DNA from: Thermoplasmatota archaeon
Lineage (GTDB): Archaea; Thermoplasmatota; E2; JACPAO01; JAHFTW01
Length of the DNA: 64,000 nt
Direction: 5' to 3'
Assembly: GCA_041601615.1 (NCBI GenBank)
Contig: JBFIHX010000008.1
Location: forward strand, 30,677-94,676
Position 1 is the stretch's first letter, and each line of letters opens with the position of its first letter. Positions 29,415 through 61,416 of this stretch are shown here, piece by piece. A model generated the notes under the pieces. It had not been told where the DNA came from. It worked only from the letters and a program-made list of their open reading frames with translations, and searched no databases. The translations under genes and the position numbers were made by a program.

Positions 29415-29415
29415 G

Positions 29416-43457: not shown

Positions 43458-43775
43458 CTAGCAGACGCCAACGCGAGCAGGGTTCGTGTCGACGTACAGC
43501 GTGTTCTGGTAGCAGGTGTAGCTGTTGCCGTCGCAGTTGTAGTTCCTCCACGGGTAGTACACGTTCGTGGGACCATCGATGTAGCTGCGGGAGTAGTAGC
43601 AGCTGCTAGGGTAGTTGTAGTAGGTGGTGCACGTCCGAATCGGGTCACCAGTCAAGGGGTCGTACACGATGGGCGAGCCGCAGTACGTGTAGTGGCTGGC
43701 AGAAGCCGGCGAAATCATCAGCACGGTTCCGACGAGGAGCATTCCGAGTAGCAGGGGTTTGAGTATGGAGTTCAT
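43458..43775 (-). CDS. small secreted Tyr/Cys-rich protein, tandem paralog 2 (105 aa)
   Basis: Same signal peptide and Cys spacing as paralog 1. Confidence 0.65.
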   Translation of the reverse strand: MNSILKPLLLGMLLVGTVLMISPASASHYTYCGSPIVYDPLTGDPIRTCTTYYNYPSSCYYSRSYIDGPTNVYYPWRNYNCDGNSYTCYQNTLYVDTNPARVGVC

Positions 43776-44009
43776 CCAATCCCAGCATGCAAAAAATTCA
43801 ATATAAACATAAGACGGGATGTTCGAAAAATCCTAAAATATAGTCGTGGGGCAGCGCCATTCTACATGTTACTAGCGGTTTTAGAATCAATGAGAAGGTG
43901 GCCATCCCCAACCTCGAATTGGCTCCAGGCAGCGCCCCTCGAGGCGGCTCCGCCACCCCCCCTAGACTTCCCAGAAGAACGTCGACAGACCCGCCACCGA
44001 ACACAGAGG

Positions 44010-44154
44010 GGGCCCGCGCATGTTTTCAAGGTTAATTGAACGGTGTTGTGTCGAGATCCGAGCGAACAAAGCAGGAATTGGAAGGGAAAAGGAGGAAAAT
44101 CCAAGGGGCTGCTTCGTGCACCTTGGCCTGTTTCAACCCATCCGATTTGACAGA
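44010..44154 (-). repeat. diverged copy of the conserved 3' flank (copy 3)
   Basis: Shares the CCTTTTCCCTTCC pyrimidine tract and the GGATCTCGA segment. The hairpin has degenerated. Confidence 0.45.
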
Positions 44155-44475
44155 CTAGCAGAGGCCAACGCGAACGGGGCTCGTGTCGACGTACACTTCG
44201 TTCTGGTAGCAAGTGTAGCTGTTGCCGTCGCAGTAGTAGTTGGTCCACGGGTAGTACACGTTCACGGGGCCATCAACGTAGGTGCGGTAGTAGTAGCAGC
44301 TGCTAGGGTAGTTGTAGTAGGTGGTGCAGATTGTGACCATCGGATCGCCTGTCAAGGGATCGTACACAAGGGGCGGATTGCAGTACGTCGTGTGGTTGGC
44401 GGAAGCCGGCGTAATCATCAGCACGGTTCCAACGAGCAGCATTGCGAGTAGCAGGGGTTTGAGTATGGAGTTCAT
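44155..44475 (-). CDS. small secreted Tyr/Cys-rich protein, tandem paralog 3
   Basis: Starts at MNSILKPLLLAMLLVGTVLMITPASA. The ORF track allows 3 extra codons up to 44484. Confidence 0.65.
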   Translation of the reverse strand: MNSILKPLLLAMLLVGTVLMITPASANHTTYCNPPLVYDPLTGDPMVTICTTYYNYPSSCYYYRTYVDGPVNVYYPWTNYYCDGNSYTCYQNEVYVDTSPVRVGLC

Positions 44476-44987
44476 ACAATTCATTCATGCCAAATACCAA
44501 TATAAGTTTGGCTCGGGATTTTTGATAATTGGCCCAATATCAATGGTCGATGTAGCCCCCATATAGTTTACTATTTAGTTTTTTATCCAAGGATTGGGGA
44601 CGCACCCAATATACCTGCCTTCAGCGACGAATGGCCCAGTGGAGTCGCCGGCCGGTTGCGAGCCCAGCAGCAATTGAGCAAGTCCGCCATCTTTGAAAGC
44701 GGCATCACTGCGAGCACAGGAGGTGCTGTCTCTACAGAGGCGTCCGCTGAATGCCAGCGCCGTCGGTAGGACCCAGGTCGTTCATCCATTCATGATTGAA
44801 TCGCAGTTGTTTGCGGGTCCAAGGCCAAATGCAGGGGCCCGAAGCGCAGATTTCCCTTACAAGCGCGCCAACAAGCGCCGTGCGATCCTTGCCCCGCGCT
44901 CCTCTACAAAACCAGAACCACCCAATGGTTGACGGCCCGCCCCTCCCCCCCACAACCTTCACGACCCCACCTAGACCTCCACGCCCC

Positions 44988-48672: not shown

Positions 48673-48860
48673 GCGACGCGAACGTTGGCGGCGCGAGGAC
48701 CGCGCTCGGATTGCTCGGTGTCGAACTCGACAGTCATGCCCTCACGGGGCTCACCCTCGAACGCAGAGTGGTGGAAGAAAACCTCCTTCGTTCCACCCTC
48801 CGGCATGATGAAGCCGAAGCCCTTGTCGTCGATGAATTTTGTAATGGTTCCAGTGGCCAT
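48669..48860 (-). CDS. cold-shock domain protein (CspA family)
   Basis: MATGTITKFIDDKGFGFI matches the RNP-1 motif of CSDs. 63 aa. Confidence 0.85.
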   Translation of the reverse strand: MATGTITKFIDDKGFGFIMPEGGTKEVFFHHSAFEGEPREGMTVEFDTEQSERGPRAANVRVA

Positions 48861-49047
48861 ACACGGCGACCAAACCTAGAACCATAAAAGCGTGCAGGCT
48901 TGGGACGAGCGAGGAAAAAAGGCCCCAATCGCCGAAAAAACAGGCCGCGCCAGAGCAGAAAGCGAGGCGGCGAAAGTGCCCCCACCCCCGGCAATCTCCC
49001 AGGCCTTGCCACCCATGCATCAGCCAGCCCCAATCCTTCTTGGCGCC

Positions 49048-49413
49048 TCACACAGCACCGGGTTGCTGTGACAGTAGGTTGAGGGCACCGGCACATGTCC
49101 AGATTCCATACTCTTCCAGAGGCATGGATTCAATGAATCCGTAGGGGCCAAGGGGGCTGCCGTCATCGAATTGAATGACGCGCTTGGGGAAATTCACCAA
49201 CCTAAAGTTGGCATTCGTGACTTCCGCTTGAAACGACACATTGCCCCTCTCCAGCGTGCTGTGGTATACGATGCCGGGCGACTGTACCTGCAGGTCGTAT
49301 TCGCCGTGGTACACCATCCGGCCCCGGACCTCCAGGTCGGCAGCCACGAAGGAATCTGCCCCTGCCACTCCCGGTACGAGAAGCAACAGTAAGACGAGAT
49401 GCCACGAAGCCAT
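49048..49413 (-). CDS. secreted hypothetical protein (~120 aa)
   Basis: Start re-placed at MASWHLVLLLLLVPGVAGA signal peptide. Confidence 0.4.
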   Translation of the reverse strand: MASWHLVLLLLLVPGVAGADSFVAADLEVRGRMVYHGEYDLQVQSPGIVYHSTLERGNVSFQAEVTNANFRLVNFPKRVIQFDDGSPLGPYGFIESMPLEEYGIWTCAGALNLLSQQPGAV

Positions 49414-49475
49414 TACCTTAGCCCGACTACGGGCGCAAGCACTCGGTTCCATGCCTCCATGATTCAACGAAAAAC

Positions 49476-50456
49476 ATGGTTTATAATGATAGTCTTGATA
49501 GCTGGTTCCTCTTGAACAAAGGATTTGCCCTAAAAGCTTTGTATCCTGCTTTGTCTCGTTTCTTTGTGGTTTGGCAACAGGTGCGTGCATCCGTCCTGCT
49601 TGGCCTGCTGGCCCTGACCCTCCTCGCCGGATGCTTGAGTCAGGACGACAATTCTGACAAGCCTACGGGAATCTCCTCCACGGACCCACCGACCAGCAGC
49701 AAGAGGGGCGAGACACCCGAGGGAAACGGGAGCGCAGATCCGGCGACCTCACCGCCTGCATTCTTTGATCCGTTCAGGACTGTCATCGACCTTTCCCAAT
49801 GCCTGTTTATGCCTGTTTCATCCTTGATTCAAAGCGCGGACGCGCAGGCGGCACTGCCGAGTGGATATCGGCCCGCCCCCCTCGCCCCCGGCTTGGTCCC
49901 CGTCAACCTGAATCTGTATGATTGCTCAGCCGTCATCATCGACAATAGAACCGTCCTGCATGATGTCCGCTTCGGCTATGTCTCCATCGCTGCCTACGCA
50001 GATGATAAGAACGTCAGCGGAGTCGGCCGCTCCGAAGGATACATCGAGAGCTTCTTCTCCGATAACCCTGTTCTTCTTGGCCTGATTGCCGGCGTCGATA
50101 TCCCGACCCACGCAGCAATTTTTACGATAGAGCGTGGTTCCAACACCAGCGCTTGTACGGTGGAAATTGAAGGCGAGGCATGGTACTCGTTCCAAGGGGT
50201 CAAGAGCGATGACCTTCGAACAAATTCGATTGCGTACCGCGAGCACCGTCGGTCGGAGTCGGCGGCCGCTTGGGCCGACATCACGGTCACCTATGACTAC
50301 AACAACCTCGTCACCGAAGGAGTCCTCCATGCACAATCAGGAGTCCTTGCCACTGCATCCCCTGCGAATTCAGGATTGCACGCGGCCATCTCCAGCCAAG
50401 GAGAAATGACTGGAGAAATTCGGTTCGGTCGGCACCTCTTCCCAATGGAAACGTGA
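49476..50456 (+). CDS. lipoprotein, hypothetical
   Basis: Lipobox LLALTLLAGC. The start may be GTG ~49581 rather than 49476. Confidence 0.5.
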   Translation: MVYNDSLDSWFLLNKGFALKALYPALSRFFVVWQQVRASVLLGLLALTLLAGCLSQDDNSDKPTGISSTDPPTSSKRGETPEGNGSADPATSPPAFFDPFRTVIDLSQCLFMPVSSLIQSADAQAALPSGYRPAPLAPGLVPVNLNLYDCSAVIIDNRTVLHDVRFGYVSIAAYADDKNVSGVGRSEGYIESFFSDNPVLLGLIAGVDIPTHAAIFTIERGSNTSACTVEIEGEAWYSFQGVKSDDLRTNSIAYREHRRSESAAAWADITVTYDYNNLVTEGVLHAQSGVLATASPANSGLHAAISSQGEMTGEIRFGRHLFPMET

Positions 50457-50460
50457 TCAC

Positions 50461-51110
50461 ATGAAAAATCGTATTTTTGCCATCGCCTCCGCGCACACAA
50501 TCGCCCTCAGCATGGTTCTTGCAACCCTTATGGCCCCAGTGGGAATGGCCCAGACACCCCCGTCAAGATAGATGCGACCAACCCCACGAAACGTGGAAAT
50601 TCTCACCGAAGAGGACCACGAAGCAATGCTCGCCGCCATTTCCAAGGCAACATTCCGAAGCCCACACTACGCGGGGCACCTACGGGCCCACTTCATCTCT
50701 AGTTCGGAACCCGGCTTCGGAGCCCCCGAACCCCAATTCCCCTGGCCGGCAAGCAGAAGACCAGGCAGGTTTGTAGAGCGTATCTGTCTCACGGATTTCC
50801 GCCCACCGTTGACCATCCTAGGGCTGCACCCAGAGTACCGCAACGCCCGAACACGCTGCATGGCCTGTTCCAAGACGAAGGCGAGGCCATCCAGCATGCG
50901 GAGGAACTCGAACACGACGGCACTGACACCTACATCTTCGCCGACGAGGCCCCGTCCGGCGAGCGCGTGGAATCCCTGACCGCGTCGTGGATGACGCCGC
51001 AGAATTTCAGGGGTTTCATAGAGCAACTGGACGAGGGCAAAGCAGACCAGGATGTGAATGCGGCGTGGCCCGACGAGGAACATGGATCGTGGTACCGGTG
51101 GTGCGCGTGA
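50461..51110 (+). pseudogene. possible decayed or frameshifted gene(s)
   Basis: A 36-codon signal-peptide-only ORF lies at 50461-50571. A protein-like 83-codon acidic reading frame (HGLFQDEGEAIQHAEELEHDGTDTYIFADE...) ends at 51110 with no start codon. The stretch is otherwise gene-poor. Confidence 0.25.
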
Positions 51111-51955
51111 GCGTGCGGTCCATGTGCGGCCAGTGCGGCATGGGGTTGTCGATGGGCGTGGGCGAGGCAGTGACCTCGCACGACTGCTGGAGCGAATGCT
51201 CGACCGAGGAAACCATGTTGGCCTTCGACCCGGCGTGGCCGCCGTGCCCGTGCCCCCGGCTGGGTCGGCTGGTGCCGCCCCGGTGGCTTGACTGCGCTTC
51301 GAGCCAGAGGCCCTCGTGTCGAAGAAGACCGAGAGCCCTGCACACGTCGAATACTTCCACGGAAAAGGAGGCATGGGCAGCTGGGCGCTCCCGTTTTCGT
51401 GGAGCGGGGAGGCCGTGGCCCAAGCGCTGCGAAGCACCGCGCACACGTCGCCTTGGACAACGGCCGCGTGCCGCCGTCGTGGACACATCCCTGCACTACC
51501 GGCCCAGGGGACTCGTTGTCGGGAACCTGAAATTGTCTGGAGCGAGGCAGGGCACGGCTATTGCCCGCTGATGAAAATGCATTTGTTCTACGATCTGCTT
51601 CAGGAGTCGTGGGCTTTCCACGGTTGGATGATCCAGGGTCTTGGTTTGGCCTTTCATTCCTGGCATTGGTGGGAGCCTTTTTATTGGCTGGAGCACGCCG
51701 TCATGAAACCGAGGCGGCGCCTGCCCCGGCCGTATTCATTGCGGTCGCTCTGTTGCTGTGCGCGTCCTTCCTGCTCGTGGCGCTCATCGCGGTCGTCGTT
51801 CGCTGGCGTGCGAAGCGGAAGGCGGTGGCAGGAGAGCAGGAAGCATAGAGTCTACTGCCTCCGCTGCTCAAGCCGCACGTCGAGGCCCCAGAGACACAAC
51901 CCCCTGCCCCGCCGTAGCTATGCACCGTTGGTTAATTAGTTGAAGAAGAAGGTAA

Positions 51956-52600
51956 AGGGAGGAGACATTCGGATTCCCAGGCTACGAGGCGGTAGAGGAT
52001 ATCGCCTTCACCACCACGGTCGAGGGAATCCAATGGGGCAACTCCACGTTGATCCTGGGCCACATGAAAAACAGCGACGGCACCCACACCGTCGTGCTCA
52101 CGGATCGCGCCGTCCGCGCCCTGCGGGCCTGGGTACGCGGCCTCCATGCCTCCCCCACGTGGCGTGGACCCGCAACGCCCCTCTTCACGGGGCCCGACGG
52201 CCGCGTGGTCACGAACAAGTGGCTCAACGAGGTCATGAAGCGCGTCGCGGCAATTGCCGGCGTCCAAAAGCGAGTCACGAGTCATGTCTACCGGCACACG
52301 GCAGGAACCCTCATCGGCCGCGAGAACCCCAAACTCGCCGTGTAACAACTCGGCGTCACGGACAAGGTCTTCCAAGCCCACTACAACCGGCCCCGACTCG
52401 AAGACCGCCTCCACCGACGCGACCTCCTGCCAGGAAGCAACGGCTCGCGCAAAACCCCGATGGAACGCCTCGGCTCGGCGTATTGGAAGTTCGAGCACGG
52501 CCTCATCGACCGCCAAGAACTCGACCACGTCCGAGAACTCACCCGGCTTGAAGTGACCACCAAAAACCAATCGAAACACGAAGAATCCGCATATGCATGA
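51956..52600 (+). pseudogene. tyrosine recombinase (integrase) C-terminal catalytic fragment, copy 1; 5'-truncated and carrying an in-frame TAA at 52343-52345
   Basis: Beta-hairpin segment after box I (ILGHMKNSDGTHTVVLTD), box II HVYRHTAGT, and catalytic Tyr region (AHYNRPRLEDRLHRRD) after the stop. ~60-70% identical to copy 2 at 60427..60993. Confidence 0.6.
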
Positions 52601-52612
52601 AACAAATCGTGT

Positions 52613-52692
52613 GGGGCCCAATTGGGCCCCGACACGGTTCGTATACGCGCTACGGTTCGTATACGCGCACTGCGGTTGATAGTCCCACCCGG
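52613..52692 (+). repeat. att-proximal repeat cluster: 18-bp perfect palindrome GGGGCCCAATTGGGCCCC, 2 x 17-bp tandem ACGGTTCGTATACGCGC, then 13-bp att core TAGTCCCACCCGG
   Basis: The att core is identical to 61051..61063 (the 3' end of tRNA-Gln). A GGTTCGTAT segment also follows integrase copy 2. Confidence 0.55.
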
Positions 52693-53063
52693 TTTCTTCA
52701 GAGGTTGGTGCCCAATTGGGCGCTTTTCCATCTTTTCCCTTCCCACATTTGTTCGCCCGAACAGCCGGCCTTGCTTGCACCCTTCGGTGCTCTGATTGCA
52801 TCCAGGCACTCCTGGTTCTGCCCTTCCTAGGGCCGACCCGAATCGGGACCCAATTCTGAACGGGGGCAGGAAGGCAGACTCATTACAAAATCAGAGGATT
52901 GCGTGCCGCAATCACTCAAAAACCCGCCCGCCTCGGCGTCTGCGTCCAAGCGGTTTCAGTTCACCTTCGGGCCAACAGTCGAACCGCCCTACAGAACGGT
53001 TCGTTCGTCCAGCCTGGGAAAGTGAATGACGAAGACCTGCTTCCCTACCCAGACCCAACAGGA

Positions 53064-53372
53064 ATGGTCGAGGTCATCGTCCTGCTCGCAGCCATATCCG
53101 TAGGGGTCACCGGATATTTCACCAGAAATGGCGACGTAGAAGCCGGGTGTGGCTGCGCTTCGGCTGGCTTGCTGTTGGCCTTCTACGCCACTGTGGCGCT
53201 TGCCTGTCTGAATGACGAACATCTGTCCTCCGATGATGACGTAGCAGTAGCTGTCGTGCTGTTGTTCAGCGTCGGGGCTGTCGTGATCGCAGTGCCACTT
53301 CACTTCGTCGCCAAGCTCGCCGATTCTGAGCGCGGTTGCAACGAGGGGGGTCTCGGAGGATGCGCCTGCTGA
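53064..53372 (+). CDS. small membrane protein (hypothetical)
   Basis: Start re-placed at MVEVIVLLAAISVG. Three hydrophobic helices. Confidence 0.35.
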   Translation: MVEVIVLLAAISVGVTGYFTRNGDVEAGCGCASAGLLLAFYATVALACLNDEHLSSDDDVAVAVVLLFSVGAVVIAVPLHFVAKLADSERGCNEGGLGGCAC

Positions 53373-53949
53373 ATCCCAGATGGGGATGCCCAGAATTTCG
53401 GGGCCGGTTTGCGTCTCGAAGGCATGACCAAGGACCCAGATAAGGCCAGTCTCGTAGCGTCCAAGTACCGCGTTCCGGGATGCTACGGCCCTTCAGAGCC
53501 GGGTCCGGTTGGCGGTGGTATGACAGGTGCGCCACTGGGGCTTGCATGAATGAAAAGGTCAGGACTGCTTCGCTTCCCGTCCTTTCCTGAAGGATCTTTG
53601 TCCTAGAGAAGAAGTCGTGCCGGAGTCTGATTCTTAAGGGTGGTCGTCGTCCAGGCGCTTTGCCGCATCGGCGTGAACGTCGCCTTGGACACCGACCGCA
53701 TACCACCATAATGGCTCCCCTGCCACCCTCGGCGTTGAGACCTACGCAGTGCCGACCCCACCCCCCACTTCAGGGCAGAGCTACGACGTGCTGGCGTGGT
53801 CCACATCGGGACATGAGCCTCGGGGTGTGGGCATGAGCGAAGTGAATCCAATGTGTGGGAGTGCATGTCCTCGTAGTGTACCGCGAGGGAGGCCTCAAGA
53901 GCCTTCACGCCTTCGTATTGAGGAGGTTAGTGTTGCCTCGCACTCGAAC

Positions 53950-54825
53950 TCAGGCCATGGTGGGCGTGGGCCCAGGGTTGAGGCGCGAAGGCAGCAAGGG
54001 AGTGAGTGCGAGCCAGGGCCAGATCAGGATCATTGAGTCCAATTGGAGCCATGCACGGGACATTCCCCAGTACGCCAGGAACAGCAACGCAAGCGTTACG
54101 GCGTGGGTGGGTGTGAGGTGTTTGTCCTGGTAGCGGCTAGCCAGGAGGTCGAGGTGTTGCTGTCTTGCTTCGGGAGTGTCGCGTTCGGCGGTCTCGGTGG
54201 CAGGGGGCCGAACGATGGCGTACAGGGGGGACGCGTATGCAACTACCAGCGCGAAAAGAAGGCCCGAGGCCAGTGCCTCCAGTGTGGGCGGAGGGGCACC
54301 GTCGAAGAAGAAGGATAGGGCGCCCCAATTGAATTGCCATCCGAAGAGGAACACAAGTTGAAGGGCACCGTAGGCGGATGCGACGATGCGCAGACCGCGC
54401 GGTGGGTTCCAGGTGGTAGCTACCAGGATGAGGGTGGCAATAGTCGCGGCGGCGTGGATGGTAGCAAGAAAGCGGACGCCCGCGTTGCTCCAGTCGGCCT
54501 CGGCAAGCAGCGCCCACATCGGTAGCGCCGAGAGAAAGAGCGTGTGTTCTCCCGCCTTGGGTGTGATGGTGGCGCGGAAAAAGAGCGCGAACGCCATGAC
54601 CGCGCCCATCGCGACGGAAAACGCCGCCGTCACGGGGTCCTCCAACTGTGCAGTGGCGAAGGCCCAGCCGAGGGGCGCGACGACGAGCACAATCAGGACA
54701 TGCTTTTTGGTCCAGTGCCGCCACGTCAGGTACAGGAGTTGCAGGAGACACCCCGCAGCAAAGGCGGCTGCCGCTACACCAGATCCAGGCATGGTCATTC
54801 CGACTCGGGCGGCTTGACGCCCCAA
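53950..54825 (-). CDS. polytopic membrane protein (hypothetical)
   Basis: Seven to eight hydrophobic helices. No recognised motif. Confidence 0.45.
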   Translation of the reverse strand: MGRQAARVGMTMPGSGVAAAAFAAGCLLQLLYLTWRHWTKKHVLIVLVVAPLGWAFATAQLEDPVTAAFSVAMGAVMAFALFFRATITPKAGEHTLFLSALPMWALLAEADWSNAGVRFLATIHAAATIATLILVATTWNPPRGLRIVASAYGALQLVFLFGWQFNWGALSFFFDGAPPPTLEALASGLLFALVVAYASPLYAIVRPPATETAERDTPEARQQHLDLLASRYQDKHLTPTHAVTLALLFLAYWGMSRAWLQLDSMILIWPWLALTPLLPSRLNPGPTPTMA

Positions 54826-55427
54826 TCCTGAAGGGTGAGCAACTTCCCACTTGTACCTGTGAATTTTATGAAATTCTCTACATCTGGGCTATACCATGCG
54901 TGCCAGATTTCACCACTTTGGAATGTACTAATTGTGTGGATTGTTTTCATTTTACCCCATGTGGTGTCTACGGTGTCCCACCCTTCGACAGCCACGTCAT
55001 AATGGTAATTTTCCTCGTATCCGTCTTGGTAGGTGGTGCAGTTATGGGTGTAGTTTGCCATCGGGAAAATTGGTCGTTGAGGGCAGTCATTCCAGAAGTA
55101 AAGCTTCGTCTGAAATGCCACCCACCCTAACGACTCTGTATCTACCCACTGGGTTCCCGCGCCTGTTGGGTGGATGTAGGGATCGGGCGGAGTCTCTACA
55201 AGAAGTCGGTATGTAGAATACCCTTGGTGTTCTTCAATACCCTCAACTTTGTAATGAAGCCACTCACCATCCGTGGTGTTGTATTTCCACCACTGTCCTA
55301 CCCCCCATGTGGGTACTGGCACATCCGACGGATCTGGCAAGGAGGCGTCCGCCTCGGAGGCCATACAGCCCGACAGGACGATGGCAACGAGCAGCAGGGA
55401 AGGAACGATAAGGATACGCATATTCAT
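54795..55427 (-). CDS. lipoprotein, Trp/Tyr-rich (hypothetical)
   Basis: Start re-placed at MRILIVPSLLLVAIVLSGC lipobox. AT-richer codon use. Confidence 0.45.
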   Translation of the reverse strand: MNMRILIVPSLLLVAIVLSGCMASEADASLPDPSDVPVPTWGVGQWWKYNTTDGEWLHYKVEGIEEHQGYSTYRLLVETPPDPYIHPTGAGTQWVDTESLGWVAFQTKLYFWNDCPQRPIFPMANYTHNCTTYQDGYEENYHYDVAVEGWDTVDTTWGKMKTIHTISTFQSGEIWHAWYSPDVENFIKFTGTSGKLLTLQDWGVKPPESE

Positions 55428-55440
55428 CTCCGAGATGATT

Positions 55441-58400
55441 TCAGTCATAAATAACTTCGTCGTGTCTCCAAACGTATTCCTGCGACGGAGTCGGAGAGAC
55501 TAAGTGGTCTACGAAGAACAGATCGACAGGTAGTGCCCAGTTGACAATGGGCGGTTGTTGGATGACAGCAGTGTATGGTACGCGGAGGAAGTTCGGATTG
55601 AAATCCCGCTCCTCCAATGCGTAGTGGATTTCGTCGCCTGTCTGGGCAAGGTTCCAGTAATACCCAACGATATCCCCGACGAAGTGTATTTTCATCATTG
55701 TTAAGAGCCATTTTTCGATATTTTTAGATTCTAGTGTTTTTATGATGGCCTTGACCCACCCATCGGCTTTTTGAGTAACTTCGGCGAAATTCGCGAAGTC
55801 CTCGTCCATGTCTAGAACATGGTGACGGAAGCCGATGCAATCATGGGGGTGGCTCGACTCACCCGAATGCCCGTAGTTTATCCACTCACAGGACTTGTAG
55901 TATGCCTCCCAATAGGCATTAAGAGCAAAACCATTGCCATCATTAGGTGCACGGCCGCTGGGAGGCGGGTTCTGCACTCTGTCGCGGTCTACAGACGAGT
56001 ACGGGTTGGATGGTACGAGGTTCATGAACCGGTCGCCGTCCGTGGCAGGGTTGCCTCCATTTCGAGTCTCGTATTGTTGGATGAACCATGTGTAATACTG
56101 GCCGTTGATTGGCGTAATCTGACCCCGGTTGGAACTGAATCGTTGGTCGTGGTCGTACTCGTAGTGATCCCACCCACTGACACGATTGCTGGAGGAATAG
56201 TATTCGTTCTTCAGCAGTTGCAGATTCGACCAGTAGTGGAAGCGGTTCCCAGTCTCATCCTCCTTCCACAACACCTTCAGGGTGTCCTTGTAGGCATGGT
56301 CGAAGAACGCATACGCATCGTAGCCGTGGCTGTCGTGATTGATGCCATTGGCGTCCGTGCGCCGAGTCGTGGTGAACCGGCTCATGACCTCGTAGTCCTC
56401 CTGGCCTGAGTAGAGCGCGACCTCTACGATCAACTCGCCGGCCCGGTCGGAACCGCCGTTCTCGCGGATCACGGAATTGGCGCTGCCGCTGTCCAGGTCT
56501 ACGCCGAAGCGCAAGCCGGGTGCAAACGACGTGCCGACGAAACGGAACGTATTGTCGCCCTCCACAAGGTATTCAGGCGGGAACGAAATGTAGCGGTACT
56601 GTTCCTCGGTACTGCTCCATGCGCAAGGATTGATCATGTAGATCATGACTCCGTTGACTTCCAAGCTGATGCTGTACTCACCTCCTTCGCTGCACCCGGT
56701 GCTGCGGCCCCAGATGCCCATCCAGGCGTCGTAGCCGCCGCCGTAACTCAGGTCTCGGATGTCGAGAGTCTTGATGAACTCGTCATTGCCACTGTTGACC
56801 TCCGCGCTCGTCTCGGCAGAAAAATCGTCGTTGTAGTATCCCTTGTAAGTATTGGCCTGGACCGTGTTGTAATTCCATTCCGTCGTGTAGACAGTGGTTG
56901 AATCGTTCGGAGATGGGGGCTGGCTGCTCGTGGTACCTGTCACGGACACGTCGTCCACGAACCAACCAAGGAAGCCGTTGGCGATGCTGTCTATTGTGTC
57001 GAAGCGGAACGCGAGGCGCACGTCCTGGCCGGTGAAGCTGCTCAGGCTGTACGTGCGCGTGACCCATTGCTCTTGGCTACCGTCGATGAGCGGGAAGTCC
57101 TGCAACACGGCACCCGTCGAACTGACGACCTGGACCCATTTCCGGTCGTAGCTCGTGCCAGATTCCGTCTGGTGCCAGCTCCTGAACGACAACGTGGCGC
57201 TTCCTGGAACGGTGAAGATGGGGCTGGTCAGGGTGCCGCTGTTGCGGGCGCCGTTGTCGTAATTGTTCGTGGATTCTTGTCCGTACCAACTGCTCTTGCA
57301 ACACGACTGGTACTTGTCAGAGGACAAGTGCCACATACCGGTCGTGCTCCACGAAGTGGAGGCGCTGTTGAATCCCTCCGATATGCCTTGGCCCGTGGAG
57401 CCGCCACCTCCGGTGTCGTCGGTTTCGGTGATTAGCACGTCGTCGATGGCCCAATGGTCGTAACTCGACCCACTGTGGGTCAGTTGGCGCCACCGGAACT
57501 GGGTGCTGGTCGTCTGGGCTCCCACTGGAATGGTTTCCGTGATGGACGTGAAGAGCGAGTAGCTGTCTTCTTTGTAGGTCTTGATAGTCGCCCAAGAGCC
57601 GCCGCCGTTGGTGCTGTATTCCAGGACTACGTCCTCGCTGGAGTCTGCATTCTCACACGGCGAGGACCCGGTACCGATGCGGAGGTAGAAGTTGACATGG
57701 CCTCCGCTGCTTACGTCCAGGCTCTTGGTGGCGGCGCTACGGGTGGAGCCGCCATCAAAGTAGAGCGCGTAGGGGCTGCTCTGGCTGCCGCAACTGCTGC
57801 CTTCGCTAGCGCCTGAGTAGGTCCACTTGTTCGTGTCAAAGCTGCCGTCATTGAAGTTGTCCGAGAGCCGGGTCACACCGCTACCGCCGTTGGTGACGGT
57901 GTTGGTGATGACCACGTCGTCCACGGCCCAGTGGTCTCGGTCTGTGTATGCTGCGAAGTTGAGTTCCCGCCATCGGAACATGGTGTTGCTCGTCTTAGCG
58001 ACCGATGGAATCGCGGCGGACTGGGACCCCCATGAGCCGTGGCTTCCAGCTTGAAGCGTCTTGATGGCAGTCCAGGAGGAACCGCCGTTGGTCGAGTATT
58101 CCAGGACCAGATCGTCGTCGTGTTCGGGTTCGGGCTTGTCACAGGTCCCTCCCCCCGTCCCGGTTCCGTGGCGGGCATAGAAGGATATGGAATCACCGTT
58201 CTGGACGTTGAGGCCTGGGGTGCGGGCGTAGCGGCCGCTGGTGCCGTAGAAGTAAAGGGCACGGCTTCCGCTGACGCTGCCGCAATTCGTGGATTCACTC
58301 ACGCCGCTTCGGCTCGGCCACTTGGATGAACTGATGGTGCCGTCGTCGAAATCGTCCTGGAACACGATCTGGGTGCCGACTTCCTGCAAGTCCGGGGATG

Positions 58401-59118
58401 CCGTGGGTAGTTCCGGTGTGAGGTTGGTGGTCTGGTGGTACGTGCGGTTCCAGTCCTCGAAGGGAATGTAGTCGGCCATCATGCCCGGCATGGGGTTGCT
58501 GCCGGTGCGGGGCACGCGGATGTCGGGGAGAACGTCGCGGGGCGCGGGGAGGCTGGCAGGCATTGGGGTGGATGTGGATTGGGTCGAGTCGTTGCAGTCC
58601 GGCGGGCTCGGCGGTTCGGGTGGATTAGTGTCACCCCCGCCTTCCACCTGAACGTTTACCTTGCCCCCGCTAGAGTCCGAGGACGAGGCTCGGGAGGAGG
58701 TGGTTTGGCAGGGGTTGATAGGCGGGTCTTCCACAAGATCCAGCAGGTTGGTGTGGTAGAAGACCCGAGTCGGCACCGGGCTTTGCTGGATGGCGATCTC
58801 GTCATCGGGGAATTCCGCAAGGTCGTAGGCGGGAAGGGCGCCGGAGTAGAGTAGGCCCTTGTATTCGTCCAACTGGTTTGCCAGGGCAGTCATGACGCTG
58901 TTGGCGCGGAGGCTGCGGGCGGTGGGGGCCATGCCAGTGGGGTCAAGGCCGCCGACGGTCAGGTCCATGGCGTCCAGAAGTTCGCGCTCCAGTTCCCCCA
59001 CGTCGTCGCGGCCCAGGGGCAGTTGGTCTTGGCTGGCGGTGAGGGGGATGCTCACAAGTAGCGTCAGGCTCAACACGGCGGCAGTCGTAATCTTTGTCAG
59101 GGTGGCAGGATTGAACAT
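55441..59118 (-). CDS. large secreted protein (~1220 aa) with three MAM-like/jelly-roll repeats and an uncharacterised ~420-aa C-terminal domain
   Basis: Start re-placed at MFNPATLTKITTAAVLSLTLLVSIPLTAS. Three repeats carry the C-G-S...ALYF-x-G...LEYSTNGG-x-SW...FRWRQ...DHWA[IV]DDV pattern. GC is lower than the core. Confidence 0.7.
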   Translation of the reverse strand: MFNPATLTKITTAAVLSLTLLVSIPLTASQDQLPLGRDDVGELERELLDAMDLTVGGLDPTGMAPTARSLRANSVMTALANQLDEYKGLLYSGALPAYDLAEFPDDEIAIQQSPVPTRVFYHTNLLDLVEDPPINPCQTTSSRASSSDSSGGKVNVQVEGGGDTNPPEPPSPPDCNDSTQSTSTPMPASLPAPRDVLPDIRVPRTGSNPMPGMMADYIPFEDWNRTYHQTTNLTPELPTASPDLQEVGTQIVFQDDFDDGTISSSKWPSRSGVSESTNCGSVSGSRALYFYGTSGRYARTPGLNVQNGDSISFYARHGTGTGGGTCDKPEPEHDDDLVLEYSTNGGSSWTAIKTLQAGSHGSWGSQSAAIPSVAKTSNTMFRWRELNFAAYTDRDHWAVDDVVITNTVTNGGSGVTRLSDNFNDGSFDTNKWTYSGASEGSSCGSQSSPYALYFDGGSTRSAATKSLDVSSGGHVNFYLRIGTGSSPCENADSSEDVVLEYSTNGGGSWATIKTYKEDSYSLFTSITETIPVGAQTTSTQFRWRQLTHSGSSYDHWAIDDVLITETDDTGGGGSTGQGISEGFNSASTSWSTTGMWHLSSDKYQSCCKSSWYGQESTNNYDNGARNSGTLTSPIFTVPGSATLSFRSWHQTESGTSYDRKWVQVVSSTGAVLQDFPLIDGSQEQWVTRTYSLSSFTGQDVRLAFRFDTIDSIANGFLGWFVDDVSVTGTTSSQPPSPNDSTTVYTTEWNYNTVQANTYKGYYNDDFSAETSAEVNSGNDEFIKTLDIRDLSYGGGYDAWMGIWGRSTGCSEGGEYSISLEVNGVMIYMINPCAWSSTEEQYRYISFPPEYLVEGDNTFRFVGTSFAPGLRFGVDLDSGSANSVIRENGGSDRAGELIVEVALYSGQEDYEVMSRFTTTRRTDANGINHDSHGYDAYAFFDHAYKDTLKVLWKEDETGNRFHYWSNLQLLKNEYYSSSNRVSGWDHYEYDHDQRFSSNRGQITPINGQYYTWFIQQYETRNGGNPATDGDRFMNLVPSNPYSSVDRDRVQNPPPSGRAPNDGNGFALNAYWEAYYKSCEWINYGHSGESSHPHDCIGFRHHVLDMDEDFANFAEVTQKADGWVKAIIKTLESKNIEKWLLTMMKIHFVGDIVGYYWNLAQTGDEIHYALEERDFNPNFLRVPYTAVIQQPPIVNWALPVDLFFVDHLVSPTPSQEYVWRHDEVIYD

Positions 59119-59235
59119 TCGATTTCCTCCAGTGGACTCATCGACTTCGGGCATATCGGCCGATGTGAGTTGCCCCAAGAAATGGACTTTGGTACTTGAA
59201 TTCTTGCTGTAAGGGCAATTTGCATTTCCCATTTG

Positions 59236-59259
59236 ACCCAATATCAATAATCATATTGG
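59236..59259. promoter_or_regulatory. inverted repeat CCCAATAT-N8-ATATTGGG upstream of the large secreted-protein gene
   Basis: A member of the recurring CCCAATAT intergenic motif family (see findings). Confidence 0.3.
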
Positions 59260-59871
59260 GGAAGATTTCTGTAGTGCCTCCTGAGCCGCAGGGTGGAGCG
59301 GGAGCGCTACAAGGCGGACGTTGCGTTTGCCGGGTTGCCCCGGCCGGACAAGGCCTGAATCTGTCACGCGCCGGACGCGGGCCTTGGTTGTGGAGATGGC
59401 CCACCCGTGATGCTGCTGGAGCTTGTGGCACAGCACCGCCAACGCCCAGGCGTTGTCCCGGATGAGCTCGTAGAGCAGCCGTAAGGCGTCGTCGCGTAGG
59501 GTGGCGGCCTGAAGCCACCACACATCTAGGTCATCGCGCCACGGGAAGAGGCAATGGCGATGGCCCAGCACGCGGCGCTCGATATTACCCTCCTTGGTCA
59601 GGTCACCAACTACCTCCATTGCGAACGCCGCCCGCACCGGAACCCTCCGGCGGACCCGCTGGACCGCTTCAGAAACGCCGATGCCAGGGTGGCGGCGAAC
59701 GACACGGGCCAGGCACCGGGCCACCTCCTTGTGGCGGCGAATGCAAGACTCGTGCGTGGGGCGCGTTTGTGTTTGGGGGTGAAGCAACAATGAGCAGGCA
59801 GGACGCATCGAGCCGTCCTGATCGTCTTGGGTAGTTAGGTGCGTTGGAGCAAACGCCGGCATTGGGTTCAT
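59251..59871 (-). CDS. hypothetical protein (possibly shorter, starting MEVVGDLTKEG)
   Basis: Open frame with protein-like composition in its C-terminal 120 aa. No recognised motif. Confidence 0.25.
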   Translation of the reverse strand: MNPMPAFAPTHLTTQDDQDGSMRPACSLLLHPQTQTRPTHESCIRRHKEVARCLARVVRRHPGIGVSEAVQRVRRRVPVRAAFAMEVVGDLTKEGNIERRVLGHRHCLFPWRDDLDVWWLQAATLRDDALRLLYELIRDNAWALAVLCHKLQQHHGWAISTTKARVRRVTDSGLVRPGQPGKRNVRLVALPLHPAAQEALQKSSPI

Positions 59872-60426
59872 TCTGGATCTCGTTCAAGGGCGGTCACGAG
59901 CCATGAGTGCGCTTCTAGTTCCATTTGGACGCCGCCGGGTCCGCAAGCGTAGATGGAGTCGTCGCGGCGTTGCCAGAATCCCCCTGTCCCTGCGTCGAGA
60001 TTCCGCAGGAGCCGGCGGTGTTCTGCGGCCATGCGAAGGGATGCGAGGCTTTGCCGTGTCGCGCCGGCCTTGTGCCTCAGTAAGACATCAAAATCAGAAT
60101 CATCGACGTGCCGGTTGCGATTGGAGCCACGGCGATAGCTGCATCGTCCGGGGGTGTGACTCATGCTACCCTCAGGCCCTCTTGCGTCCCGCCCTTGAAT
60201 GATCGAGGGTCCAGGGATTGTTGGTGCGTCTTGGCTCCCGTGTGTGGCCTTAGGGGGATTGCAAATGGTCTCTGTGCCGGGAATCGGCCGTCAAGGACAA
60301 CAGGAGCGGCCATCATGGCAACCACTCCCGGCCGGTCCTGTCGTCATAGAATCGCACCGTGCCGTGGTCGTCTTGCCACGCAGTCAAGAGGCCCAGGTCC
60401 AGCAAGGCCCGCAAGATTAGCTCTTC

Positions 60427-60993
60427 TTGGCCACCGCAAGCAAGCGGCAAATCACCCCAGGTCCCGCGGAGGGGGACAAGCTTGTACTCGAAGAGGGACG
60501 CGCCGTGCGCACCCTGCGCAAGCGGATTCGATCCCTCAGCACCTCGCCAATATGGCGGGGCCCTGAGACGCCCATCTTCATAGCCCCGGATGGAACGATT
60601 CCAACGGGCAAGTGGCTCAACGACGGCCTCAAGCGCGTCGCGGCCATCGCAGGCATCCGCAAACGCACCACGTCACACGTCTTCCGCGCCACCGCAGGCA
60701 CCCTCATCGGCCGCGAGAACCCAAAACTCGCCATGCAACAACTCGGCGTCAGCGAAGGCGTGTTCAACCGCCACTACAACAAACCCCGCCTGGAAGACCG
60801 CCTCCACCGACGCGACATCTTGCCGGGTGGCGAAGGCGTGCGACAATCGCCCATGGAGAAGCTCGGAACTGCCCACTGGCGCTACGACCACGGGCTCATC
60901 AACAAGGCCGAGCTCGAGCAAGTCCGAGAACTCACCCGGCTTGAAGTGACCACGCAAACGACACCCAAACCTGAAGAAAGCGCTTACGCATGA
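60427..60993 (+). pseudogene. tyrosine recombinase (integrase) C-terminal fragment, copy 2 (open frame but lacking box I and the N-terminal domain)
   Basis: TTG start immediately after a stop. Box II HVFRATAGT and catalytic Tyr context FNRHYNKPRLEDRLHRRD. Followed 58 nt downstream by the att core and tRNA-Gln. Confidence 0.55.
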
Positions 60994-61051
60994 ATGGGTT
61001 GGGGCGGTTCGTATCCTTCTCCCCGGTGCGTAGCCGGACGGAGAAGTAAGT

Positions 61052-61123
61052 AGTCCCACCCGGATTCGAACCGGGGTCACAGGCTCCAAAGGCCCGTATG
61101 ATTGACCACTACACTATGGGACT
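61052..61123 (-). tRNA. tRNA-Gln (anticodon UUG)
   Basis: Reverse-complement AGTCCCATAGTGTAGTGGTCAATCATACGGGCCTTTGGAGCCTGTGACCCCGGTTCGAATCCGGGTGGGACT. Acceptor AGTCCCA/TGGGACT, T-arm CCCGG-TTCGAAT-CCGGG, anticodon stem CGGGC/GCCTG with loop CTTTGGA. Closely resembles haloarchaeal tRNA-Gln. Confidence 0.75.
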
Positions 61124-61137
61124 GAGCGGATGCGAGG

Positions 61138-61208
61138 TCCCAGAGGGGAGTGGTCTTGATTGCGGTCCCGAAGGACCGCAGGACTGACCACTACACTATG
61201 GGGCTCGG
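61138..61208 (-). repeat. partial tRNA-like duplicate (5' ~22 nt of tRNA-Gln) fused to a GCGGTCC-TTCG-GGACCGC tetraloop hairpin
   Basis: CCCCATAGTGTAGTGGTCA matches the tRNA-Gln 5' end. No T-arm. Second-att-like remnant. Confidence 0.4.
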
Positions 61209-61416
61209 CGTGTTGCTTTGCGCATGGACGTTTGGAACTTCATCGTGGTCCTTTGGGACGTGGACGAGGGCCATTTTGACCATGCGCGAGGCGCTTGGGT
61301 TGCCTTGCGGCGAGCCGCCCAGCCCTGACCCCTTTTTAGGGCCTTCAGTCCCGCGTGGGCCTTGGCCCGGTTCGACCGGGGCGCTGTGGTTTTGGCTTTG
61401 GCCGTCGTAGGTTAGG

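What the first reader, a model, noticed from the sequence alone, without database searches (positions are those of the whole stretch)
49000..61210. Decayed integrative elements at tRNA-Gln: two truncated integrase copies, each followed by the same att core, bracketing a lower-GC cargo island
Integrase C-terminal fragment copy 1 (51956-52600, in-frame TAA) and copy 2 (60427-60993) are paralogous. Each is followed within 60-80 nt by a GGTTCGTAT segment and the 13-bp core TAGTCCCACCCGG (52680-52692, 61051-61063). The second core is the 3' end of an intact minus-strand tRNA-Gln(UUG). This is the signature of two successive site-specific integrations into the same tRNA, for example tandem proviruses or plasmids, followed by loss of the integrase N-terminal domains. 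The elements would then be immobilised and partly eroded. The gene-poor, pseudogene-like stretch 50457-51950 would be the eroded left element. The 52.7-60.4 kb interior is the cargo of the right element.
Basis: partly seen in the sequence, partly recalled or inferred. Interest (0 to 1): 0.7.

Follow-up and report, generated by a model that had tools for sequence, protein, structure and literature searches.

The report
Decayed integrated elements at tRNA-Gln
Two dead, N-terminally truncated integrase genes, each followed by the same attachment site, mark the eroded remains of mobile elements that inserted one after another into a tRNA-Gln gene of an uncultured Thermoplasmatota archaeon; this is a well-known kind of genomic scar, here made by an undescribed integrase subfamily.

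Summary
A minus-strand tRNA-Gln(UUG) lies at 61050-61123. Its last 13 bases recur only once more in the window, at 52680-52692. Each copy lies 58-80 nt downstream of an integrase C-terminal fragment; the two fragments are 65% identical in protein.

Full-length relatives are about 390-aa tyrosine recombinases, found almost only in Thermoplasmatota MAGs. In all six loci where the DNA downstream of the integrase gene is visible, the layout is the same: integrase, stop codon, three GGTTCRTA-like direct repeats about 19-20 nt apart, then the 3' end of a tRNA-Gln or tRNA-Met gene. Both window copies keep this layout but lack the first 200-220 residues, including the first catalytic arginine. Copy 1 also has an in-frame TAA.

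Relatives show a decay series at the same tRNA-Gln:
- a full-length integrase
- a truncated, frameshifted one
- a 1.3-kb remnant between 17-bp repeats
- a 126-bp scar
- apparently clean sites, where the tRNA abuts the phosphoglycerate mutase gene or no integrase is visible

A further integrase piece at 50572-50781 is probably the upstream part of copy 1, split by about 1.2 kb.

No capsid, replication or transfer genes remain, and the left boundary is lost.

This is a new member of a known kind, of modest interest.

The parts
61050..61123 (-). Intact tRNA-Gln(UUG), the integration target. Its 3' end faces the island.
   Evidence: ARAGORN. Rfam RF00005, 63.1 bits.
61051..61067 (+). Right att core. 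It is the last 13-17 nt of the tRNA gene, read on the plus strand (TAGTCCCACCCGGATTC).
61006..61052 (+). Integrase-proximal arm of the right element. It holds three direct repeats: GGTTCGTA (61006), GGTGCGTA (61025) and AGTAAGTA (61045, overlapping the tRNA end). Spacing is 19 and 20 nt.
   Evidence: Sequence; motif search; same architecture in L003, L004, L005, L007, L008 and, with another repeat sequence, L018.
60427..60993 (+). Integrase fragment, copy 2. It is an open 188-codon ORF, with homology from about 60496 onward. It corresponds to residues about 221-392 of the 393-aa homologue P0002. It keeps HxxR (SHVFR, 60673) and the catalytic Tyr (RHY, 60769). It lacks the first catalytic Arg and the beta-hairpin Lys.
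   Evidence: PHROG integrase phrog_216, E 1.1e-5.
59251..60164 (-). Two genes transcribed away from copy 2: 206 aa at 59251-59871 and 98 aa at 59868-60164. Neither has a family match. Both are present at 100% identity in a second MAG of the same species.
55441..59247 (-). Cargo gene of 1268 aa (longest ORF; probably secreted, judged by eye). It has two Reelin-subrepeat-B domains and a MAM-like domain. Its 3' part has low GC.
   Evidence: Pfam PF21471, E 6.5e-60, and PF20773 (below the Pfam cutoff). GC 0.51-0.56 at 55-57 kb.
52860..55448 (.). Other cargo ORFs: 217 aa (54795-55448, minus), a 291-aa probable membrane protein judged by eye (53950-54825, minus), and overlapping candidate ORFs at 52860-53492. 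None has a family match.
52680..52696 (+). Left att core (TAGTCCCACCCGGTTTC). It is a displaced copy of the tRNA 3' end and marks the junction between the left and right elements.
52636..52681 (+). Integrase-proximal arm of the left element. It holds three direct repeats: GGTTCGTA (52636), GGTTCGTA (52654) and GGTTGATA (52674, abutting the core). Spacing is 18 and 20 nt.
   Evidence: repeat family D14.
51956..52600 (+). Integrase fragment, copy 1, a pseudogene. Homology runs from about 52013 onward and corresponds to P0002 residues 199-392. It keeps Lys (HMKN, 52061), HxxR (52280) and Tyr (AHY, 52376). It has an in-frame TAA at 52343-52345 and no first catalytic Arg.
   Evidence: PHROG integrase, E 1.1e-10.
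50572..50781 (+). Third integrase piece, corresponding to P0002 residues about 141-197 and including a box-I-like WPASRRPG. It is collinear and contiguous with copy 1 but lies 1.23 kb upstream of it. It is probably the upstream part of copy 1.
   Evidence: hmmsearch E 1.1e-3 against the six-frame set. tblastn to the L003 integrase, E 2e-5. hhalign E 8.3e-5, probability 61%.
50782..52012 (.). Gene-poor stretch between the third integrase piece and copy 1. It has no family hits and no further integrase homology. It is either an insertion or rearranged element DNA.
49048..50456 (.). Two lower-GC ORFs that look secreted (judged by eye): 180 aa on the minus strand and 326 aa on the plus strand. Neither has a family match. 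They are probably island DNA, but the left boundary is undefined. The last clearly ordinary gene on this side looks like a cold-shock protein by eye (48669-48860, minus).

Best explanation
The region from about 49.0 to 61.05 kb is the eroded remains of at least two related integrative elements that inserted by site-specific recombination at the 3' end of the tRNA-Gln(UUG) gene.

Proposed mechanism for the intact element (inferred, not shown): it encodes a tyrosine recombinase of about 390 aa. Just downstream of the integrase stop codon lie three GGTTCRTA direct repeats, likely integrase-binding sites, and then a copy of the last 13-17 or more nt of the tRNA. Recombination between this attP and the tRNA gene inserts the element. 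The element-borne copy rebuilds the tRNA, and the old 3' end is displaced to the far side of the element.

A second, related element then recombined with a core already present at the locus. That core was either the rebuilt tRNA or the displaced copy; the order cannot be told. The result is: integrase 1, arm repeats, core (52680), 8.4 kb of cargo, integrase 2, arm repeats, core inside the tRNA (61051).

Deletions and point mutations then removed the N-terminal 200-220 residues of both integrases, including the first catalytic Arg. Copy 1 gained a stop codon and is probably split by about 1.2 kb. The outermost att site and any replication or transfer genes were also lost. The elements can no longer excise.

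The integrase 3' end survives preferentially, probably because deletions extending further would destroy the tRNA gene.
For: Observation and paralogy:
- establish the tRNA, the two cores, the motif and the two paralogous fragments.

The integrase family is real and targets tRNAs:
- 48 cluster representatives were found, and many of those listed are 368-445 aa long.
- The three full-length members scanned (P0002, P0003, P0007) pass the PF00589 cutoff.
- The integrase is followed by a convergent tRNA-Gln(UUG) in L005 and L007, tRNA-Gln(CUG) in L004, and tRNA-Met in L003, L008/L009 and L018.
- The triple direct repeat is conserved between the stop codon and the tRNA end in these loci.

Both window copies are truncated:
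-.

The same locus in relatives shows the full range of states:
- L007 has a full-length integrase plus the dodecin gene seen in the window.
- L005 has a truncated, frameshifted integrase plus dodecin and ABC-F.
- L015 has a 17-nt att-like repeat 1276 nt from the tRNA end and no integrase.
- L012 has a 59-nt repeat 126 nt apart, then the phosphoglycerate mutase gene.
- L011, the closest relative (ABC-F 94% identical), has no integrase in the 0.8 kb after the tRNA.

The elements move horizontally:
- L004 comes from the same MAG as L011. Its integrase is 80% identical to P0002 but about 60% identical to the window copies.

The copies diverged partly under selection:
- dN/dS is 0.42, and third-position differences number 78 against 48 and 36 at the first and second positions.

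Intact relatives carry typical island cargo:
- A NACHT-like NTPase in L007.
- A DNA methylase and a serine recombinase in L018, within more than 10 kb of lower-GC DNA.

Literature:
- Tandem integration and integrase loss are documented in archaea (PMC8371274).
Against: - No att copy or other boundary marks the left end of the left element.
- No replication, capsid, conjugation or excisionase gene was recognised, so the type of element is unknown.
- The cargo shares nothing with the other elements that carry this integrase.
- The core repeat is short: 13 exact bases, 16 of 17.
- GC and GC3 deviation is patchy, and similar dips occur outside the island.
- Copies 1 and 2 are each other's closest known relatives (65%, against 63% for copy 1 and P0002), so an old in-situ duplication cannot be excluded on sequence alone.
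- The empty-site genomes are only 74-94% identical in the neighbouring ABC-F protein, and L011 shows just 0.8 kb beyond the tRNA.
- The binding role of the arm repeats and the position of strand exchange are inferred, not tested.
Confidence: 0.85

Rival explanations
1. Local segmental duplication. A single integrated element left one integrase remnant plus att. A later duplication or insertion event copied the 'integrase C-terminus, arm, core' block, and the two copies then diverged in place.
For: Copies 1 and 2 are each other's nearest known relatives at 65%. Neither element has recognisable mobility genes. The window contains other tandem duplications, such as three units at 42.4-44.5 kb.
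Against: - The copied block would have to end exactly inside the tRNA 3' end, at the position where this integrase family's att core lies. DNA to the right of the two cores is unrelated.
- dN/dS of 0.42 with excess third-position change implies divergence while the genes were functional, not as dead duplicates.
- Tandem integrase arrays occur independently in L019.
- The locus is demonstrably a recurrent integration site.
Confidence: 0.07
2. Retained, functional truncated integrase. The open 188-codon copy 2 is kept because it does something without catalysis, for example occupying the arm repeats and blocking further integration or excision at the tRNA.
For: - Copy 2 is an uninterrupted ORF in two MAGs.
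- C-terminal-only remnants recur: L005 in this locus, and probably P0005, whose homology covers only the C-terminal part.
- dN/dS is below 1.
Against: - Copy 2 lacks the N-terminal half that aligns ahead of the PF00589 catalytic domain, the first catalytic Arg and the Lys. By general knowledge of tyrosine recombinases, that N-terminal region is the DNA-binding part.
- Six of the seven differences between the two MAGs fall within 47 nt of copy 2, and they include the two amino-acid differences seen between the two products. This gives no sign of constraint.
- Copy 1 and the L005 remnant carry a stop codon and a frameshift respectively.
- Recurrent survival of the 3' end is explained by its closeness to an essential tRNA gene.
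Confidence: 0.05
3. SSV1-type 'suicidal' integration. The integrase genes are not decayed but were split by integration itself, because attP lies inside the integrase ORF. The N-terminal halves would then sit at the other ends of the elements.
For: The host is an archaeon, and the integrases are split or incomplete. This mechanism is common in archaeal elements (PMC8371274 and PMC7253208).
Against: - The att core lies 58-80 nt downstream of the stop codon, not inside the ORF.
- Full-length integrases remain intact next to the tRNA in the integrated state in L007, L008 and L018.
- No N-terminal fragment (profile positions 1-139) exists anywhere in the window.
- The motif is HxxR, not the KxxR of the SSV1 type.
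Confidence: 0.01

Closest known systems
Archaeal integrative elements whose integrase stays whole after integration (the class exemplified by pNOB8-type elements in Sulfolobales, and integrated plasmids and proviruses at tRNA genes in Thermococcales, Methanococcales and haloarchaea)
   Same: A tyrosine recombinase targets the 3' end of a tRNA gene. The integrase lies at the tRNA-proximal end and att lies outside the ORF. The literature describes tandem integration at one locus and later loss of the integrase (PMC8371274).
   Different: - The catalytic motif is the canonical HxxR, not the YxxR that defines the pNOB8 type.
- The family is confined, as far as was seen, to Thermoplasmatota MAGs plus one MAG labelled Halobacteriales.
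- It carries an extension of about 70 aa after the catalytic Tyr, with a conserved DRLxRRDxLPG motif.
- The type of element (plasmid, virus or other) is unknown.
Bacterial tRNA-linked genomic islands and prophages with P4- or lambda-like integrases, including tandem arrays and integrase pseudogenes
   Same: The anatomy matches: integrase next to a tRNA, direct repeats of the tRNA 3' end, variable cargo, patchy low GC, absence from relatives, and decay to integrase remnants. The repeated sites next to the core resemble arm-type sites. These bacterial features are from general knowledge and were not tested here.
   Different: The host is an archaeon. Sequence similarity to phage integrases is only about 24%. 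The three repeats are tightly packed, about 19-20 nt apart, directly abutting the tRNA end and partly resembling it.
SSV1-type (suicidal) archaeal integrases
   Same: An archaeal tyrosine recombinase that targets tRNA genes and leaves incomplete integrase genes in chromosomes.
   Different: Here the incompleteness comes from deletion, not from attP lying inside the gene. Att is downstream of the stop codon, and integrated full-length copies exist.
XerA and other chromosomal tyrosine recombinases
   Same: The only solved-structure matches by sequence are weak ones, to an entry named 'Integrase' (3nkh) and to XerA (5hxy).
   Different: The E-values are only 3e-3 to 5e-3. The family is variably present, lies next to tRNAs and is linked to foreign cargo, unlike a housekeeping dimer-resolution enzyme.

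Membership tests
Tyrosine recombinase / phage integrase (Pfam PF00589) | Significant similarity to the catalytic domain | tested here: met
   - The window fragments alone fall below the Pfam cutoffs. Copy 2 gives only a weak DUF3435 hit of 17.5 bits against a 25.8-bit cutoff.
- They do hit PHROG integrase families, at E 1.1e-10 and 1.1e-5.
- They are 57-63% identical to P0002, which passes PF00589 at 32.5 bits against a 27.1-bit cutoff. P0003 scores 36.1 and P0007 50.6.
Tyrosine recombinase / phage integrase (Pfam PF00589) | Complete catalytic set R...K...HxxR...H/W...Y | tested here: not met
   Full-length P0002 has R190, K217, H289, R292, H321 and Y322. Copy 1 lacks the first Arg and has a TAA between HxxR and Tyr. 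Copy 2 lacks both the first Arg and the Lys. The window genes are therefore dead members of the family, not active enzymes.
tRNA-linked integrative element / genomic island | Integrase gene adjacent to the 3' end of a tRNA gene | tested here: met
   Copy 2 ends 57 nt before tRNA-Gln. Homologues in six other loci show the same arrangement.
tRNA-linked integrative element / genomic island | Direct repeat of the tRNA 3' end at the far side of the element | tested here: met
   This is met for the right element: 13 of 13 (16 of 17) bases at 52680-52696 match 61051-61067. It is not met for the left element, for which no third copy was found.
tRNA-linked integrative element / genomic island | Absent from the same site in related genomes | tested here: met
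   In L012 and L015 the tRNA-Gln is followed by the phosphoglycerate mutase gene, after 205 nt and 2.6 kb respectively, with no integrase. L011 shows no integrase within 0.8 kb. In the window that mutase gene lies 46 kb from the tRNA.
tRNA-linked integrative element / genomic island | Recognisable self-mobility or replication genes (capsid, Rep, conjugation, excisionase) | tested here: not met
   Pfam, PHROGs and NCBIfam give no such hit between 49 and 61 kb. The neighbourhood at 37-49 kb gives none in Pfam. Scans of viral contigs found nothing.
SSV1-type (type I, suicidal) archaeal integrase | attP inside the integrase ORF, so that integration splits the gene; KxxR motif | tested here: not met
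   Att lies downstream of the stop codon. Integrated full-length copies exist. The motif is HxxR. The definition is taken from PMC8371274.
pNOB8-type archaeal integrase | YxxR in place of HxxR | tested here: not met
   The window copies read SHVYR and SHVFR, and P0002 reads THVFR. The definition is taken from PMC8371274. The elements behave like this class, with the integrase whole after integration, but by this motif they are not members.

The most novel reading that the evidence does not exclude
C-terminal integrase stubs next to tRNA genes might not be mere debris. They could be kept as non-catalytic proteins that, together with the triple GGTTCRTA repeats, occupy the att region and shield this integration hotspot from further invasion or rearrangement. 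This might also explain why such stubs recur in this family (window copy 2, L005, P0005).
Probability: 0.05. Interest if true: 0.6.

Novelty: new member of a known kind. Interest (0 to 1): 0.3.

Why it matters
It documents an integration hotspot and an uncharacterised, lineage-restricted integrase subfamily in uncultured Thermoplasmatota, a group with almost no described mobile elements. The subfamily has a distinctive attP layout: three short direct repeats abutting the tRNA end.

Comparison of loci gives a natural decay series at one tRNA-Gln: intact integrase, truncated integrase, integrase-less remnant, then a 126-bp scar. This is useful for annotating islands in MAGs and for defining att sites for future genetic tools.

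It changes nothing about how such elements are thought to work.

Tried and rejected
Approaches that gave nothing useful:
- The word-indexed protein search with copy 1 found only the same-species copy.
- The alignment-based locus search failed until the alignment was narrowed. The genome scan then gave only 4 loci.
- Three viral-contig scans, with the integrase profile, P0002 and the 206-aa neighbour, found nothing.
- The metagenome scan with ABC-F found only a distant paralogue.
- Phage and plasmid collections gave only distant integrases, at about 24-28% identity.
- The window's own 100-kb contig could not be retrieved.
- Short contigs for P0007 and P0009 gave little context.

Ideas tested and rejected:
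- SSV-type split integrase, because att lies outside the ORF.
- A third att core to the left: none was found with up to 2 mismatches, and hits with 3 mismatches equal chance.
- Paralogy between the left and right element interiors: none.
- Shared accessory genes between the window's cargo and other elements with this integrase: none.
- An apparent 40-nt duplication flanking the 1.2-kb gap between the third fragment and copy 1: the alignment scores no better than shuffles.
- Continuation of integrase homology inside that gap: none.
- Terminal inverted repeats or IS-like features in that gap: none convincing.
- The tRNA-like copy at 61137-61205 as a second tRNA: neither ARAGORN nor Rfam recognises it.

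Full report
**1. What is in the sequence**

ARAGORN and Rfam both find one tRNA in the window: tRNA-Gln(UUG), on the minus strand at 61050-61123. Read on the plus strand, its last 13 nt are TAGTCCCACCCGG (61051-61063). This 13-mer recurs only at 52680-52692. With up to one mismatch allowed, 0.04 matches are expected by chance and no shuffle reached two. The match extends to 16 of 17 bases.

Upstream of each core, on the plus strand, lies an integrase-like reading frame.
- Copy 1 spans 51956-52600 and has a TAA at 52343-52345 where homologues have Gln.
- Copy 2 spans 60427-60993 and is an open 188-codon ORF.
- The two share 113 of 175 identical residues with no gaps (E 2e-87) and 77% nucleotide identity.

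GGTTCGTAT occurs three times in the window against 0.2 expected. All three copies lie between an integrase stop codon and a core.

**2. What the fragments are**

Pfam alone barely recognises copy 2. PHROG integrase profiles hit both copies (E 1.1e-10 and 1.1e-5).

An exhaustive HMMER search found 48 cluster representatives, and many of those listed are 368-445 aa long. The best is P0002, 393 aa and 57% identical to copy 2. P0002, P0003 and P0007 exceed the PF00589 gathering score.

A profile built from 21 full-length members (at least 360 aa) shows which part each copy covers.

| Copy | Profile positions | P0002 residues |
|---|---|---|
| Copy 1 | 196-390 | 199-392 |
| Copy 2 | 226-390 | 221-392 |

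P0002 carries the full catalytic set R190, K217, H289-x-x-R292, H321 and Y322. Copy 1 retains K, HxxR and Y. Copy 2 retains only HxxR and Y. Neither has the first Arg. Both are catalytically dead.

The motif is the canonical HxxR. It is not the KxxR of SSV1-type integrases or the YxxR of pNOB8-type integrases, as defined in PMC8371274.

**3. A third piece**

The profile also hits ORF 50572-50979 at positions 140-177. The E-value is 1.1e-3, and the next best hit is at 2.4. Two further comparisons support this.
- tblastn of this ORF against the L003 integrase gives E 2e-5.
- hhalign aligns its residues 1-70 to P0002 141-197, including a box-I-like WPASRRPG (E 8.3e-5, probability 61%).

The piece lies on the same strand as copy 1 and to its left. 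It ends where copy 1 begins in P0002 numbering (197 against 199), yet it lies 1.23 kb away. I therefore favour, at roughly 60:40, one integrase gene split by about 1.2 kb of inserted or rearranged DNA over a separate third remnant.

The gap holds no further integrase homology, no IS-like ends and no family hits. An apparent short duplication at its edges is not significant. Profile positions 1-139 are absent from the whole window.

**4. Family hallmark and target**

In every locus where DNA downstream of a family integrase is visible, the integrase is followed within about 50-130 nt by a convergent tRNA gene.

| tRNA | Loci |
|---|---|
| Gln(UUG) | L005, L007 |
| Gln(CUG) | L004 |
| Met | L003, L008/L009, L018 |

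Between the stop codon and the tRNA end there are three short direct repeats about 18-21 nt apart. The last one abuts or overlaps the tRNA end. The repeat is GGTTCRTA-like in the Gln-targeting and some Met-targeting members, and GATAGC-like in L018. The window copies show the same layout.

| Copy | First repeat | Second repeat | Third repeat |
|---|---|---|---|
| Copy 1 | GGTTCGTA (52636) | GGTTCGTA (52654) | GGTTGATA (52674) |
| Copy 2 | GGTTCGTA (61006) | GGTGCGTA (61025) | AGTAAGTA (61045) |

The repeat resembles the tRNA T-arm sequence in inverted orientation. By analogy with arm-type and core-type sites, I infer that these repeats bind the integrase. This was not tested.

**5. Is the island absent elsewhere?**

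The organism is a Thermoplasmatota archaeon known only from MAGs. The table compares the tRNA-Gln locus across genomes. Identity refers to the neighbouring ABC-F protein unless stated otherwise.

| Locus | Relatedness to the window | State next to tRNA-Gln |
|---|---|---|
| L001 | Same species, 99.7% nucleotide identity | Same right end as the window |
| L011 | ABC-F 94% | Unrelated DNA, no integrase in the 0.8 kb visible |
| L005 | ABC-F 82% | P0002-like integrase, truncated at box I and frameshifted |
| L007 | Dodecin synteny | Full-length P0002, next to a NACHT-like NTPase |
| L015 | ABC-F 75% | No integrase; 17-nt copy of the tRNA end 1276 nt downstream, then the phosphoglycerate mutase gene |
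| L012-L014 | ABC-F 74% | 59-nt direct repeat (tRNA end plus flank, 95% identical) 126 nt apart, then the mutase gene 205 nt after the tRNA |

Together these form a decay series at one integration hotspot, and they give an integrase-free state in which tRNA-Gln is followed by the mutase gene. In the window the mutase orthologue lies at 13175-14725, 46 kb from the tRNA. The housekeeping block that follows it in relatives is inverted in the window. This block runs from an M28 peptidase through the BNR, HEAT, purH, purN and folC genes. Because of this rearrangement, synteny cannot define the left boundary of the island.

The integrase tree conflicts with host relatedness. L004 comes from the same MAG as L011, yet its integrase is 80% identical to P0002 and about 60% identical to the window copies. 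This indicates horizontal movement.

**6. Two integrations or one duplication?**

The junction at 52680 reads: arm repeats of element 1, then the tRNA-derived core, then unrelated DNA. This is the expected product when a second element recombines with a core next to a resident first element. DNA to the right of the two cores is unrelated.

dN/dS between the copies is 0.42. Differences at the three codon positions number 48, 36 and 78. Much of their divergence therefore accrued under selection, that is, in functional genes. Another tandem case exists in L019, where a family integrase is followed by a tRNA-Met 3' fragment and then a second, unrelated integrase.

Copies 1 and 2 are nevertheless each other's closest known relatives, at 65% against 63% for copy 1 and P0002. 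An old duplication therefore keeps a small probability. The order of the two integrations cannot be determined, because integration into the rebuilt tRNA and integration into the displaced core give the same map.

**7. Cargo and element type**

The right element spans 52697-61050.

| Coordinates (strand) | Product | Notes |
|---|---|---|
| 55441-59247 (minus) | 1268 aa | Reelin-subrepeat-B and MAM-like domains; lowest GC in its 3' part |
| 54795-55448 (minus) | 217 aa | No family match |
| 53950-54825 (minus) | 291 aa | Looks like a membrane protein by eye; no family match |
| 59251-59871 (minus) | 206 aa | No family match |
| 59868-60164 (minus) | 98 aa | No family match |

None of these proteins, and none of the ORFs at 49-52 kb, matches a viral, plasmid, defence or NCBI family. 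None resembles genes of other elements that carry this integrase.

Intact relatives carry variable island-type cargo. L007 has a NACHT-like NTPase. L018 has a DNA methylase and a serine recombinase within more than 10 kb of lower-GC DNA. 'Cryptic integrative element or genomic island' is all the evidence allows.

To the left of about 49 kb the genes look chromosomal: a gene that looks like a cold-shock protein by eye, a PKD-domain histidine kinase, an M28 peptidase and folate genes.

**8. Why the same end survives**

The surviving pieces cover profile positions 196-390 (copy 1), 226-390 (copy 2) and 185-347 (L005). P0005, one of the short database entries, likewise shows homology only over the C-terminal part. 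The simplest reading is that deletions erode the element from inside, but cannot extend through the adjacent tRNA gene without destroying it. The integrase 3' end is therefore the last part to go. This is inference.

The alternative is that stubs are retained for a function. Several points weigh against it:
- Copy 1 has a stop codon.
- The L005 remnant has a frameshift.
- Six of the seven differences between the two same-species MAGs cluster inside copy 2, and two amino-acid changes separate the two products.

**9. Comparison with known systems and verdict**

The region works like the classic tRNA-linked integrative elements of bacteria and archaea. Tandem integration and integrase loss are already described in archaea (PMC8371274).

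By its motifs and att position it is neither SSV1-type nor pNOB8-type. Its nearest characterised relatives are only distantly similar: about 24% identity to staphylococcal phage integrases, and weak hits to a PDB entry named 'Integrase' (3nkh) and to XerA (5hxy).

The novelty is limited to an undescribed, lineage-restricted integrase subfamily with a distinctive triple-repeat attP arm and a long conserved C-terminal extension. It is a new member of a known kind, of modest interest.

Noticed in passing
window 61137-61205 (minus strand), just upstream of tRNA-Gln: An 86%-identical copy of the first 35 nt of the tRNA lies 82 nt upstream of the real gene. With an inverted partial copy and an inner GCGGTCC-UUCG-GGACCGC hairpin it folds into a long stem (-39.3 kcal/mol, z = -4.4). 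ARAGORN and Rfam do not call it a tRNA. L012 has a similar 5'-end duplicate 89 nt upstream of its tRNA-Gln, but L005, L007, L011 and L015 do not. Its origin and function are unknown; it may be a recombination scar, a leader or a terminator.
   Followed up: partly
window 42366-44505: Three tandem units of about 700 bp, 80-82% identical to one another. Each encodes a protein of about 105 aa that looks secreted and Cys/Tyr-rich by eye (42552-42872, 43458-43775, 44155-44484, all minus strand). None has a Pfam match.
   Followed up: partly
window 13175-30750 compared with L012 and L015: Synteny is broken. In relatives the order is ABC-F, tRNA-Gln, phosphoglycerate mutase, then M28/BNR, HEAT, purH, purN and folC, all on one strand. 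In the window the mutase gene keeps its orientation but lies 46 kb from the tRNA, and the block from M28 to folC (16.6-30.7 kb) is inverted. At least two rearrangements are needed. One breakpoint may coincide with the island.
   Followed up: partly
window 52617-52626 and 52711-52720: The palindrome CCCAATTGGG occurs exactly twice in the window. The two copies flank the left att core, one about 55-60 nt upstream and one about 20 nt downstream of it. The first is part of a GGGGCCCAATTGGGCCCC hairpin just after the stop codon of integrase copy 1.
   Followed up: no
window 60884-60930 compared with L001: Six of the seven nucleotide differences between the window and the same-species contig L001 (2384 nt compared) fall within 47 nt of integrase copy 2. 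Two amino-acid differences separate the two products, and in both cases L001 carries the residue found in copy 1. This may be a short gene-conversion tract or a mix of paralogues in a MAG assembly.
   Followed up: partly
window 50462-50571: A 36-codon ORF reads MKNRIFAIASAHTIALSMVLATLMAPVGMAQTPPSR and looks like a signal peptide. It ends at a stop codon directly abutting the third integrase fragment. It looks like the stub of a secreted-protein gene joined to the integrase remnant by a deletion.
   Followed up: no
L012 14252-14436 and L015 6440-7732: Relatives carry integrase-less scars at the same tRNA-Gln. L012 has a 59-nt direct repeat (95% identical) 126 nt apart. L015 has a 17-nt copy of the tRNA end 1276 nt downstream, bracketing DNA that looks AT-rich by eye.
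   Followed up: yes
L019 5997-8987: A family integrase (P0171) is followed by a tRNA-Met 3' fragment (AGTAGCGGGGA) with no tRNA gene. Two small ORFs and a second, unrelated PF00589 integrase come next. This is an independent example of stacked elements.
   Followed up: partly
Integrase family alignment (A1, A2); window 52403 and 60796: All family members carry an extension of about 70 aa after the catalytic Tyr. It has a nearly invariant P-x-(L/I/V)-x-D-R-x-x-x-R-(D/E)-x-(L/I/V)-P-G motif and an aromatic residue at the penultimate position. This is unusual for tyrosine recombinases and is uncharacterised.
   Followed up: no
window 20001-22100: This is the lowest-GC kilobase of the window (0.456 at 20-21 kb), lying between the BNR and HEAT genes. 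It holds ORFs without Pfam hits, including 20823-22100 (425 aa). It may be another insertion.
   Followed up: no
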